Assembly: GCF_036507355.1 (NCBI RefSeq)
Contig: NZ_AP027877.1
Length of the DNA stretch: 64,000 bases
Direction: 5' to 3' (one strand)
DNA from: Escherichia coli
Lineage (GTDB): Bacteria; Pseudomonadota; Gammaproteobacteria; Enterobacterales; Enterobacteriaceae
A program made the translations under genes and the position numbers. Positions 56,144 through 56,995 of the stretch are shown piece by piece; the stretch's first letter is position 1; every line of letters begins with the position of its first letter. The notes under the pieces were generated by a model, which was not told the DNA's origin, did not search any database, and saw only the letters and a list, made by a program, of their open reading frames with translations.

Positions 56144-56995
56144 TCACTTTTGTGAGAATGTTTCAGGGAACCATTCTTGTAGTTGCTGCCTAAGTTTTTG
56201 GCATCTAGAATCATCTTTAATATTGATATCTATACCTTCCTTTGCGGCATACCTTTTTATCGCTTCAATTGTTGCGTCCAGAGTGATGGAGCCGCGTACC
56301 CCCTTACATTCTTCAATCTCATGCTTCAGAACGTATTCAGCTACCTTGCGGCGATTGGCGTGTATCTGAGCGTATCGGATAGTTCGCCCGTCGGTATTGT
56401 CACCAATCGTTTTTAGTGCCTGTTTTGCCTGTGCCGCTTCATAAACTCGCTCAATGTCTTCGGCAGACAGGAACGTTTCATTCATAGAAATAACAAGCGA
56501 GTTATCACCAGTAAAAGTGATGTCCAAACTCCCAACCCCATCAGGACGTTCGTCTATAGCCTCCAGATAATTATTAATGGTGTCCTTGTTTAACCTTATC
56601 GGCTCATTTGGCCTTATAGGAAAAGATGACGGTATGGCCCAGTAACCAGAAGCAATGCCAGTACACCAGAAACAATCTTCCTCAGTGGAAATATGGAAAT
56701 CGGTGCTGACTTTTGAAAGCTCAAGCCCTAACGGGTGAGGTCGATTTTTCGTGGCGCATCCCATATATAGCGCCTCGGCAATTTCTTTCGCATTGTTTTG
56801 GATTAACTCCCGGGAAAGAAAGCCTCCAAATGAACAAGGCTCGCCATTGAGGAGAGCATACAGATGGATCCGGCGCTCTTGATGGTAAGCAACCAACGTA
56901 GTAGGACTTACACCCAACAGCTCGCTTGCCTCAGCTATAGATACTGGCCCATCAGGTCTAACCCTTTTCTTTTTTTCCCAGATTGAAGCGCGCAT
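56144..56995 (-). CDS. Hypothetical 283-aa protein with N-terminal HTH-like segment
   Basis: ATG start; VSIAEASELLGVSPTTLVAYHQ resembles MerR/excisionase-type HTH; C-terminal 200 aa has no recognisable motif; located between int and alpA. Confidence 0.5.
   Translation of the reverse strand: MRASIWEKKKRVRPDGPVSIAEASELLGVSPTTLVAYHQERRIHLYALLNGEPCSFGGFLSRELIQNNAKEIAEALYMGCATKNRPHPLGLELSKVSTDFHISTEEDCFWCTGIASGYWAIPSSFPIRPNEPIRLNKDTINNYLEAIDERPDGVGSLDITFTGDNSLVISMNETFLSAEDIERVYEAAQAKQALKTIGDNTDGRTIRYAQIHANRRKVAEYVLKHEIEECKGVRGSITLDATIEAIKRYAAKEGIDINIKDDSRCQKLRQQLQEWFPETFSQK

What the first reader, a model, noticed from the sequence alone, without database searches (positions are those of the whole stretch)
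56144..56995. 283-aa HTH-domain protein between integrase and alpA, preceded by iteron module 2
The slot between int and alpA in PICI/P4-like elements often holds a repressor or an accessory defence gene. This ORF has an N-terminal MerR/excisionase-like HTH (VSIAEASELLGVSPTTLVAYHQ) fused to about 200 residues with no motif I can place, including a cysteine-containing segment (EEDCFWCTG). It is larger than typical satellite repressors, so it could be a sensor-effector regulator or an abortive-infection protein.
Basis: inference. Interest (0 to 1): 0.5.

Follow-up and report, generated by a model that had tools for sequence, protein, structure and literature searches.

The report
Integrase-adjacent regulator gating satellite alpA
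This is a real but rare, fast-evolving DNA-binding protein encoded just after the integrase of a small 8-kb E. coli satellite-like island, and it most likely controls the promoter of alpA, the island's master switch, which would help explain how such islands sense a helper phage.

Summary
The 283-aa ORF (56144-56995, minus strand) is real. It lies between int and alpA in an 8.1-kb int/alpA/Toprim/DUF927 island inserted at the 3' end of yicC. It matches no characterised protein: the only hits are a weak MerR/Xis-type HTH (Pfam E 2.9e-4), nothing in PADLOC, the PDB, phages or plasmids. Once distant slot homologues were added, AlphaFold reached pLDDT 79. The model has three parts: an N-terminal winged HTH, a ferredoxin-like middle domain and a helical C-terminal domain. 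It matches 151 AFDB proteins, and every listed hit is uncharacterised or generically named.

In islands with related integrases, 21 of 26 carry one co-oriented gene in this slot, and 11 of those genes are homologues of this ORF. Each homologue is followed within about 50 nt by an allele-specific palindrome or tandem repeat upstream of alpA. Here that is a perfect 19-bp x2 repeat at 56113-56150, found nowhere else in the window. These sites vary with the slot protein, not with AlpA. In E. coli the ORF, the repeat and the 5' part of alpA swap as one cassette inside a 99%-identical backbone.

The GGGACA iterons stay with the backbone and mirror the P4 ori/crr layout, so they are not this protein's sites.

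Best reading: an allele-specific regulator of the alpA promoter, possibly the helper-phage sensor. The direction of regulation is unresolved. An excision cofactor like PICMI iolg/icg is the main rival. A defence role is unsupported.

The parts
56144..56995 (-). ORF283 ('X'): integrase-contiguous gene. It has an N-terminal winged HTH (about residues 17-60), a helix at 62-77, a beta-rich ferredoxin-like middle domain (about 92-190) and a helical C-terminal domain (about 203-280).
56113..56150 (-). Perfect tandem 19-bp repeat (AAAGTGAAGACCTACTTTG x2 read on the minus strand; each unit has AAAGT/ACTTT inverted arms). It straddles the ORF283 stop codon and lies about -55 to -19 from a candidate alpA -10 element. 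Candidate operator of ORF283.
   Evidence: It is the only occurrence in the 64-kb window. It is kept as a tandem pair in Enterobacter and metagenome homologous loci, and both copies have changed in concert in the 55%-identical locus L005.
56102..56107 (-). Candidate -10 hexamer (CATTAT) of the alpA promoter, with no good -35. Inferred only; the consensus promoter scan found nothing.
   Evidence: sequence reading; negative
56053..56099 (-). Inverted repeat CTGCCACT...AGTGGCAG in the alpA leader. This copy is weak, but relatives have strong equivalents that overlap the alpA Shine-Dalgarno.
55857..56030 (-). alpA (57 aa), an AlpA/Vis-type excisionase-regulator. Codons 1-47 belong to the cassette that swaps together with ORF283.
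55890..56989 (.). Exchangeable cassette: ORF283, the tandem repeat, the alpA leader and the 5' part of alpA. In E. coli ET881 it is replaced by an unrelated 201-aa gene with a different alpA 5' end, inside flanks that are 99.3% and 99.8% identical.
57050..57158 (.). Iteron module 2: 7 x GGGACA (four on one strand, three on the other) around an AT-rich centre. It is a P4 ori-like partner of module 1 and presumably also contains the ORF283 promoter.
52557..52666 (.). Iteron module 1: 7 x GGGACA just downstream of the DUF927 helicase gene (P4 crr-like / PICI ori position).
   Evidence: PMC10111431
57182..58441 (-). P4-type tyrosine integrase (Arm-DNA-bind_3, Phage_int_M, Phage_integrase).
54462..55388 (-). 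Toprim primase.
52759..54480 (-). DUF927 helicase/primase C-terminal protein (SF3-type replicative helicase).
58598..58638 (.). attR-side repeat at the 3' end of yicC (core TCAATATTCTGAATCTG).
50463..50503 (.). attL-side repeat (core TCAATGTTCTGAATCTG). The island spans about 8.1 kb.

Best explanation
ORF283 is the allele-specific DNA-binding regulator of the island's induction switch. It is probably made constitutively from a promoter inside the ori-like iteron region downstream of int. I propose that it binds, as a dimer or a pair of dimers through its N-terminal MerR/Xis-type winged HTH, to the 19-bp tandem repeat that overlaps its own stop codon. That repeat sits over the -35/spacer region of the alpA promoter, so binding would gate transcription of alpA, the master activator/excisionase of AlpA-type satellites. 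The ferredoxin-like middle domain and the rapidly diverging, separately exchanged C-terminal helical domain are proposed to receive the signal, most likely a helper-phage protein. This would make the protein the Gram-negative functional counterpart of SaPI Stl. What is shown: the gene, its domains, its conserved slot, the repeats, the fact that the repeats vary with the slot protein and not with AlpA, and the cassette exchange. What is inferred: that this protein is what binds the repeats, the promoter position, the direction of regulation (a repressor relieved by the helper, or a MerR-like activator), and helper sensing.
For: (2) Every homologous locus has a palindrome or tandem pair 0-50 nt after the stop codon and upstream of alpA. 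The period is 18-22 bp (two helical turns) where two clear copies are present, and the sequences differ between loci.
(3) These motifs occur nowhere else in each 11-64 kb locus, including the att-proximal DNA next to int.
(4) They vary with the slot protein, not with AlpA. The AlpA HTH is nearly identical in L013, L017 and L035, yet their palindromes differ. L017 and L021 have related slot proteins and share GGAATATTCC x2. Within the close subfamily, the N-terminal 60 residues (97% identical window vs L008) and the operator are both conserved in window/L008/L011, and both are changed in L005.
(5) In E. coli the ORF, the repeat and the alpA 5' end are exchanged as one unit within a 99%-identical backbone, in the manner of an immunity region.
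(6) The protein evolves fast: dN/dS is 0.71, against 0.06-0.15 for int, toprim and DUF927. The C-terminal domain is only 66% identical while residues 1-200 are 97% identical. This is what one expects of a partner in an arms race with phages.
(7) From the literature: alpA is the helper-induced master switch of Gram-negative PICIs and PICMIs, and the trigger is unknown (PMC11773190; PMC10803314; PMC10111431).
Against: There is no direct evidence that this protein binds the repeats; a host or helper factor could. The second HTH helix is acidic (xxDLLxxA) in many family members, which is unusual for a recognition helix. L013 and L017 share 63% N-terminal identity but have different palindromes, so specificity may lie elsewhere, perhaps in the C-terminal domain. 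The consensus promoter scan found no sigma-70 promoter here. The gene is co-directional with alpA, not divergent as stl is from its target. In PICMI115, deleting the positional analogue iolg abolished excision rather than derepressing it; that argues against a simple repressor, though it fits an activator or a cofactor. The palindromes could instead act as RNA hairpins at the 3' end of the int-X transcript.
Confidence: 0.42

Rival explanations
1. ORF283 is a recombination (excision/integration) cofactor working with Int and AlpA. It would be the enterobacterial equivalent of the PICMI 'integrase-overlapping / integrase-contiguous gene' (iolg/icg), perhaps an extended Xis-like directionality factor.
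For: The slot and orientation match iolg/icg, which fall into 13 unrelated families of unknown function, and iolg is required for PICMI115 excision (PMC10803314). In islands with related integrases, 21 of 26 have one co-oriented gene directly after int. In the second family this gene overlaps or abuts the int stop codon by 1-11 nt, which implies co-expression with Int. The N-terminal domain is Xis/AlpA-like (TIGR01764 and HTH_17 weak hits). The family travels with the int-alpA module across different replication modules.
Against: The candidate binding sites lie only at the X/alpA junction, about 2.4 kb from attR and 5.6 kb from attL, with no copies near either att. The ORF is exchanged independently of a 99.8%-identical int, so no allele-specific Int contact is required. 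The PICMI delta-iolg phenotype was complemented only with int and iolg together, so a polar effect on int is not excluded. Homology between ORF283 and any PICMI Iolg was not tested.
Confidence: 0.27
2. ORF283 is accessory anti-phage (abortive-infection or defence) cargo in a hotspot next to int, equivalent to the int-psu hotspot of P4-like satellites.
For: The slot varies between otherwise near-identical islands. P4-like satellites and PICIs carry defence hotspots (PMC9122126 and PMC10803314 text). The protein evolves fast. It is rare: 5 of 5426 complete E. coli genomes.
Against: PADLOC gives only a 25-residue HTH hit at E 0.011. No nuclease, NTPase, TIR, Sir2, HEPN or membrane domain is seen by Pfam or by fold. 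All homologues with enough flanking sequence, down to about 25% identity in Brenneria, Tatumella and Aeromonas, sit in the same slot with the same orientation and a cognate downstream DNA motif. It is always a single gene, and it is absent from phages, plasmids and IMG/VR. It is unrelated to P4 cII.
Confidence: 0.1
3. ORF283 is a replication or packaging accessory protein. It would either bind the adjacent GGGACA iterons (ori) or act as a TerS/Rpp-like specificity factor that marks the island DNA for helper packaging through its downstream repeat.
For: It lies next to iteron module 2. Phage small terminases such as lambda gpNu1 use a MerR-like winged HTH (own knowledge). A minimal satellite without capsid genes needs some way to be packaged.
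Confidence: 0.06

Closest known systems
PICMI iolg / icg (integrase-overlapping / integrase-contiguous genes of Vibrionaceae phage-inducible chromosomal minimalist islands; PMC10803314)
   Same: Both are a single co-oriented gene of unknown function between int and alpA in a minimal int-alpA-primase satellite. In both cases many unrelated sequence families occupy the same slot. In PICMI115 the gene is needed for helper-induced excision.
   Different: ORF283 starts 186 bp after int, with an ori-like iteron block in between, rather than overlapping int. Sequence or fold homology to any Iolg was not tested. The host family (Enterobacteriaceae vs Vibrionaceae), the integration site (yicC 3' end vs fis) and the primase type (Toprim + DUF927 vs DUF3987/DUF5906) all differ. 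No mechanism is known for iolg.
SaPI Stl master repressors
   Same: The proposed logic is the same: an HTH DNA-binding module fused to a highly divergent phage-sensing region, encoded next to int and controlling the excision/replication switch. Both show strong allelic diversity between otherwise similar islands.
   Different: There is no sequence similarity (nothing in the PDB). ORF283 is co-directional with its presumed target, not divergent. The target would be the alpA promoter rather than str/xis. The direction of regulation is unknown, and Gram-negative AlpA-type satellites have been described as lacking an Stl.
MerR-family transcription regulators (the PGAP name given in E. coli PI24)
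   Different: Only 25 of 38 positions of the MerR HTH model match. The full-domain model MerR_1 fails (E 0.3). There is no long coiled-coil dimerisation helix, and the remaining 220 residues have a different architecture.
AlpA / P4 Vis / Xis-type excisionase-regulators (HTH_17, TIGR01764)
   Same: ORF283 has the same HTH-plus-wing fold class at its N-terminus, sits in the integration module of a P4-integrase island, and may have a dual regulator/recombination role, as known for P4 Vis and P2 Cox (own knowledge).
   Different: It is five times larger, scores below the family cutoffs (16.1 vs 28.8 bits), and a bona fide AlpA is encoded immediately downstream.
Phage P4 ori/crr replication layout (for the neighbouring iterons)
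   Same: Two clusters of the same short iteron lie 4.6 kb apart (4.8 kb in P4). One is just downstream of the primase-helicase gene; the other is upstream of the leftward operon that contains the Vis/AlpA homologue.
   Different: The iteron sequence is GGGACA rather than TGTTCACC. The primase and helicase are split into two genes. The operon's first gene is ORF283, which has no P4 counterpart.

Membership tests
MerR family transcriptional regulator | N-terminal HTH_MerR domain detected by family models | tested here: inconclusive
   PF00376 matches residues 19-43 only (model positions 1-25 of 38) at E 2.9e-4. PF13411 MerR_1 gives E 0.3. Only 2 of 14 family members reach E<=1e-3.
MerR family transcriptional regulator | Long antiparallel coiled-coil dimerisation helix followed by a C-terminal effector-binding region | tested here: not met
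Excisionase / AlpA (TIGR01764, PF12728, PF05930) | Score above the curated family cutoff, and a small (about 50-90 aa) single-domain protein | tested here: not met
   TIGR01764 scores 16.1 bits against a cutoff of 28.8. HTH_17 gives E 0.038. The protein is 283 aa with three domains.
SaPI Stl-type master repressor | Sequence or structural homology to a characterised Stl | tested here: not met
SaPI Stl-type master repressor | Divergently transcribed from the operon it represses, binding the intergenic region | tested here: not met
   All island genes, including ORF283 and alpA, are on the same strand. The candidate operator lies downstream of ORF283.
SaPI Stl-type master repressor | Deletion derepresses excision/replication; a helper-phage protein binds it and relieves repression | not testable with these tools
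   Needs genetics and biochemistry.
PICMI iolg/icg | Co-oriented gene lying between int and alpA, overlapping or contiguous with int | tested here: met
   The order is int stop at 57182, ORF283 at 56995-56144, alpA at 56030-55857, all on the minus strand. The same arrangement is seen in 21 of 26 related islands.
PICMI iolg/icg | Homology to one of the 13 iolg/icg protein families | not tested
Foldseek does list a Vibrio alginolyticus protein among the structural relatives.
PICMI iolg/icg | Required for helper-induced excision | not testable with these tools
   Experimental.
Known anti-phage defence systems (PADLOC-DB v2) | Significant match to a defence-system protein model | tested here: not met
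   The only hit is mad1 at E 0.011, covering 25 HTH residues.
P4 hotspot gene cII (the gene directly downstream of P4 int) | Sequence similarity | tested here: not met
   BLASTP E 14.
CP4-57 YfjH (the gene between intA and alpA in E. coli K-12) | Sequence similarity and same orientation | tested here: not met
   yfjH is on the opposite strand. The family HMM scores it -1.0 bits.

The most novel reading that the evidence does not exclude
The ORF283 superfamily is the missing helper-phage sensor of AlpA-type Gram-negative satellites (GN-PICIs, P4-integrase mini-islands). It comprises at least 151 structurally related proteins in Enterobacterales, Aeromonas and Vibrio, none of the listed ones characterised. 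Each allele would sit on its own private operator at the alpA promoter and switch alpA on when its hypervariable, separately exchangeable C-terminal domain meets a specific helper-phage protein. The ORF/operator/alpA-5' cassette would then act as an exchangeable 'helper-specificity (immunity) module', an Stl-like arms-race system built from an unrelated fold.
Probability: 0.28. Interest if true: 0.75.

Novelty: new variant of a known kind. Interest (0 to 1): 0.55.

Why it matters
In Gram-negative PICIs, PICMIs and P4-integrase mini-islands, alpA is the master switch induced by the helper phage, but the papers read here do not say what senses the phage and turns alpA on (PMC11773190, PMC10803314). 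The gene in the int-alpA slot has been noted only as 'unknown function, needed for excision'. This analysis gives that slot a concrete and testable anatomy:
- a three-domain HTH protein family that is widespread structurally but nearly invisible by sequence;
- a private DNA motif at the alpA promoter for each allele;
- exchange as a cassette between otherwise identical islands.
If the model is right, it supplies the equivalent of Stl for Gram-negative satellites. It would also offer a way to predict helper specificity from sequence and to build inducible or non-inducible satellites. If the model is wrong and the protein is an excision cofactor, it still defines the largest family of such cofactors.

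Tried and rejected
- Direct family searches with the single sequence (NCBIfam, PHROGs, PADLOC, Pfam, PDB) gave only the weak HTH.
- The word-indexed 5.8-billion-protein search found 4 clusters. The exhaustive representative search added one true distant homologue, P0006 from Brenneria, and one spurious TPR protein. Searching with P0006 or with the 14-sequence profile added almost nothing.
- AF2 on the 5 close homologues failed (pLDDT 46.5). It succeeded only after distant slot homologues were found through the integrase-anchored genome scan.
- 'ORF283 binds the GGGACA iterons' was rejected because the iterons persist when the gene is replaced.
- 'The palindromes are AlpA autoregulation sites' was rejected because near-identical AlpA HTHs go with different palindromes.
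- Homology to P4 cII, to the alternative 201-aa slot protein, to K-12 YfjH and to the second slot family (hhalign probability 0.1%) was rejected in each case.
- By eye, the C-terminal domain looked similar to the 201-aa alternative allele. A C-terminal-domain HMM did not confirm this, so I dropped it.
- By eye, the start of the C-terminal domain (RITVKQ...) resembled a ribbon-helix-helix strand. AF2 models it as a helix, so I make no claim.
- Searches of IMG/VR for the protein (one search failed for lack of conserved columns), of IMG/VR for the iteron 25-mer, of phage GenBank and of plasmids were all negative.
- Rfam found nothing in the island apart from a meaningless miRNA-model hit on the iteron palindrome. 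The alpA leader of the window folds no better than shuffled sequence (z 0.35).
- The consensus promoter/terminator scan of 55800-57300 found nothing.
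Full report
**1. The observation**

The ORF is real: 56144..56995, minus strand, 283 aa, ATG start with an AGGGTG ribosome-binding site. The window is Escherichia coli chromosome (dut, slmA, pyrE, rph, yicC). The ORF lies in an 8.1-kb island inserted at the 3' end of yicC, bounded by a 17-bp imperfect direct repeat (TCAATRTTCTGAATCTG at 50463-50503 and 58598-58638).

All island genes read on the minus strand, in this order:
- int (57182-58441)
- ORF283
- alpA (true CDS 55857-56030, 57 aa)
- a hypothetical protein of 159-167 aa
- Toprim primase
- DUF927 helicase
- four small ORFs

There are no capsid, packaging or lysis genes. This is a minimal AlpA-type satellite-like element.

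**2. The iterons next to the ORF are a replication feature, not the ORF's sites**

Seven GGGACA copies lie at 57050-57158, between int and ORF283. Seven more lie at 52557-52666, directly after the DUF927 gene. The two modules are reverse complements of each other (25/25 nt) and sit 4.57 kb apart.

The annotated P4 genome has the same layout. Type-1 iterons in crr lie just downstream of the alpha primase-helicase gene, and more in ori lie upstream of orf88 (vis, the alpA homologue), 4.8 kb away. PICI origins are also reported downstream of pri (PMC10111431).

In E. coli ET881 the flanks are 99.3% and 99.8% identical to the window, but 55890-56989 is replaced by other DNA. The iterons are intact there. 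They therefore belong to the int/replication backbone.

**3. What the protein is**

By sequence it is almost an orphan.
- The only domain hit is a partial MerR/HTH_17/excisionase-type HTH at residues 19-43: Pfam E 2.9e-4, and TIGR01764 below its cutoff.
- PHROGs, PADLOC and PDB sequence searches are empty.
- Among 5.8 billion proteins only four clusters match, at 96-55% identity.
- An exhaustive HMM search adds one distant relative from Brenneria, colinear at both termini.
- The gene is in 5 of 5426 complete E. coli genomes, whereas 91 carry a related island.
- It is absent from phage, plasmid and IMG/VR collections.

All the homologues whose contig reaches far enough sit directly downstream of a P4-type integrase and upstream of the Toprim and DUF927 genes. 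alpA lies in between wherever it was called or could be read. This holds in Escherichia, Enterobacter, a metagenome, and Brenneria at a different chromosomal site.

**4. Widening the family through the integrase**

A scan of one genome per species with the integrase returned 43 loci. Of the 26 loci where alpA could be found, 21 have exactly one co-oriented ORF of 179-355 aa filling the int-alpA gap.

BLAST clustering and an HMM link ORF283 and the Brenneria protein to 11 of these slot proteins. They come from Tatumella, Intestinirhabdus, Enterobacter, Aeromonas, Pantoea (two), Tenebrionibacter, E. albertii, Rosenbergiella (two) and Shimwellia.

Shared features of this family:
- an N-terminal motif ..AAxLLGCxxxDLLxxAxxGxIxL
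- an invariant glycine (G117) in a GxW hairpin
- an 'LxIT..E' helix
- a C-terminal helical domain of two subtypes

A second family of six, whose genes overlap or abut the int stop codon, shows no detectable homology (hhalign probability 0.1%). The other slot proteins are singletons.

This reproduces what was reported for Vibrio PICMIs. There, the gene between int and alpA (iolg/icg) falls into 13 unrelated families of unknown function, and iolg is required for helper-induced excision (PMC10803314).

**5. Structure**

With the 14-sequence alignment, AlphaFold2 gives mean pLDDT 78.8 and pTM 0.63, against 46.5 with close homologues only. The model has:
- helix-turn-helix (20-39), a long beta-hairpin wing (45-60) and a helix (62-77)
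- a beta-rich middle domain (92-190)
- a helical C-terminal domain (203-280)

Foldseek against AFDB50 finds 151 proteins at E <= 1e-3. The top hits align over nearly the full length. Every listed hit is 'uncharacterized protein' or has only a generic name, they are 220-370 aa long, and they come from Enterobacterales, Aeromonas, Oceanimonas and Vibrio. BFVD viral structures give nothing.

So this is a widespread family of chromosomal-island proteins that is uncharacterised and evolves too fast for sequence searches to connect.

**6. A private DNA motif follows every family member**

In the window, a perfect 19-bp tandem repeat (AAAGTGAAGACCTACTTTG x2, 56150-56113) straddles the stop codon. It is the best short tandem repeat in the 64 kb and occurs nowhere else in it.

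The pair is retained in the Enterobacter and metagenome loci. In the 55%-identical E. coli homologue both copies have changed together, to GAAAGAAGAGCTAGTTTG / GAAAGAAGAGCTAATTTTG.

In the distant family members the equivalent position, 0-50 nt after the stop and upstream of alpA, holds palindromes, often two at an 18-22 bp period:
- Rosenbergiella and Pantoea: GGAATATTCC x2
- Aeromonas: GAGTTATTCATAACTC x2
- others: AAAACTTTCAAAGTTTT, ACAGTAGAACTACTGT, ATAGTAAAGCTACTAT, GGATTTTAA-N3-TTAAAATCC, CTTTCAAT-N-ATTGAAAG

Shuffling shows the best palindrome is unusual in 8 of 15 loci (at most 6 of 200 shuffles reach it). It is not unusual for the short arms in the window itself; there the evidence is the tandem repeat.

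None of these motifs recurs elsewhere in its locus. Rosenbergiella L013, Rosenbergiella L017 and Intestinirhabdus L035 have almost identical AlpA DNA-binding regions but three different palindromes. L017 and L021 have related slot proteins and the same palindrome. The motif therefore follows the slot protein, not AlpA.

Within the close subfamily, the N-terminal 60 residues (97% identical between the window and L008) and the repeat are both conserved in window/L008/L011, and both are altered in L005.

**7. Cassette behaviour and evolutionary rate**

The segment replaced in ET881 runs from 6 nt before the ORF283 start codon to codon 47 of alpA. That is the ORF, its repeat, the alpA leader and the alpA HTH, moving as one unit.

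The alternative cassette encodes an unrelated 201-aa protein with no family hits, and a different alpA 5' end.

Between the window and the Enterobacter locus:
- ORF283 has dN/dS 0.71, against 0.06 (int), 0.10 (DUF927) and 0.15 (Toprim).
- Residues 1-200 are 97% identical (dS 0.03).
- Residues 201-283 are 66% identical (dN 0.23, dS 0.30).

The C-terminal domain is therefore itself a separately exchanged, fast-diverging module.

**8. Mechanism proposed**

Reading the minus strand, the proximal repeat unit ends 6 nt before a CATTAT hexamer (56107-56102) that has no acceptable -35. The two units would cover about -55 to -19 of an alpA promoter. This is inference; the consensus scan found no promoter.

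alpA is the helper-induced master switch in these elements, and is both necessary and sufficient for excision in PICMI. The most economical reading is therefore that ORF283 is the allele-specific gatekeeper of the alpA promoter. Its non-HTH domains would receive the helper signal. I give this 0.42.

The direction of regulation is open. An Stl-like repressor fits the need for quiescence. A MerR-like activator fits the weak -35, the operator position and the PICMI delta-iolg phenotype.

The main rival (0.27) is a recombination cofactor like iolg. It is favoured by the tight coupling of slot genes to int. It is disfavoured by the absence of any cognate motif near the att sites and by exchange independent of int.

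Defence cargo (0.10) and replication or packaging roles (0.06) have little support.

**9. Comparison with known systems**

It works most like SaPI Stl or a MerR-type switch and sits where PICMI iolg/icg sits. It is not a member of the MerR, Xis/AlpA or Stl families by their defining features (see the membership table). Membership of iolg/icg holds by position only.

The PGAP label 'MerR family transcriptional regulator' in one genome over-interprets a 25-residue match.

**10. Verdict**

The gene itself is a new member of an uncharacterised but widespread family. The family-level picture (private operator, cassette exchange, hypervariable C-terminal domain at the alpA switch) was not described in any of the papers I read. 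It makes an open question directly testable: how Gram-negative satellites sense their helpers. Interest 0.55.

Noticed in passing
window 52557-52666 and 57050-57158: Two clusters of seven GGGACA iterons each, reverse complements of one another and 4.57 kb apart. One lies just after the DUF927 helicase gene and the other between int and ORF283. This is the same layout as P4 crr and ori, and suggests a P4-like two-site origin bound by the DUF927 protein's C-terminal domain.
   Followed up: partly
L014, L035, L016, L013, L017, L021, L055 (alpA leaders); window 56053-56099 (weak copy): In relatives whose AlpA is of the 'GYIRRFRL' type, the alpA 5' leader carries an inverted repeat with 7-12 bp arms and a 19-28 nt loop. 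Its 3' arm ends 0-11 nt before the ATG and overlaps the Shine-Dalgarno, and the arms change in a compensatory way between loci (CCCCTAAC/GTTAGGGG, CCCGTAAC/GTTACGGG, CCCGTTAC/GTAACGGG, CCTCAGCAG/CTGCTGAGG). It could be an unreported translational-control hairpin or an AlpA site. There is no Rfam match, and the window's own copy is not significant.
   Followed up: partly
window 56639-56676 (inside ORF283): A 20-bp near-tandem duplication within the coding sequence.
   Followed up: no
window 51914-51955 and 51645-51704: Further short repeats in the island's distal non-coding DNA: an 11-bp unit (GGGTAATGTCA) x3.4, and a 30-nt imperfect direct repeat (GTACTAGC…) just upstream of the 134-aa ORF. 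These may be additional regulatory or binding sites.
   Followed up: no
window 49437-50273 (-): The dinD reading frame next to the island is interrupted. Translation runs 94 codons and then meets multiple stops, whereas E. coli PI24 has an intact 274-aa dinD at the same place. dinD appears to be a pseudogene in this strain.
   Followed up: partly
window 14868-18073: A large array of 11 copies of a 291-bp unit (83% matches), presumably a repeat-rich surface or adhesin gene.
   Followed up: no
L004 2708-3667 (E. coli SRR28530749 contig): One E. coli contig carrying the 55%-identical homologue also has a reverse-transcriptase (RVT_1) gene inserted between slmA and pyrE. The other loci lack it. 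It may be a retron or group II intron near the island.
   Followed up: no
L027, L029, L049 (Dickeya, Citrobacter, Pantoea): In three related islands the int-alpA gap is about 2 kb and holds two or three opposite-strand ORFs (about 85-181 aa) instead of a single co-oriented gene. These may be genuine accessory cargo such as toxin-antitoxin or defence genes, in contrast to the single-gene slot elsewhere.
   Followed up: no
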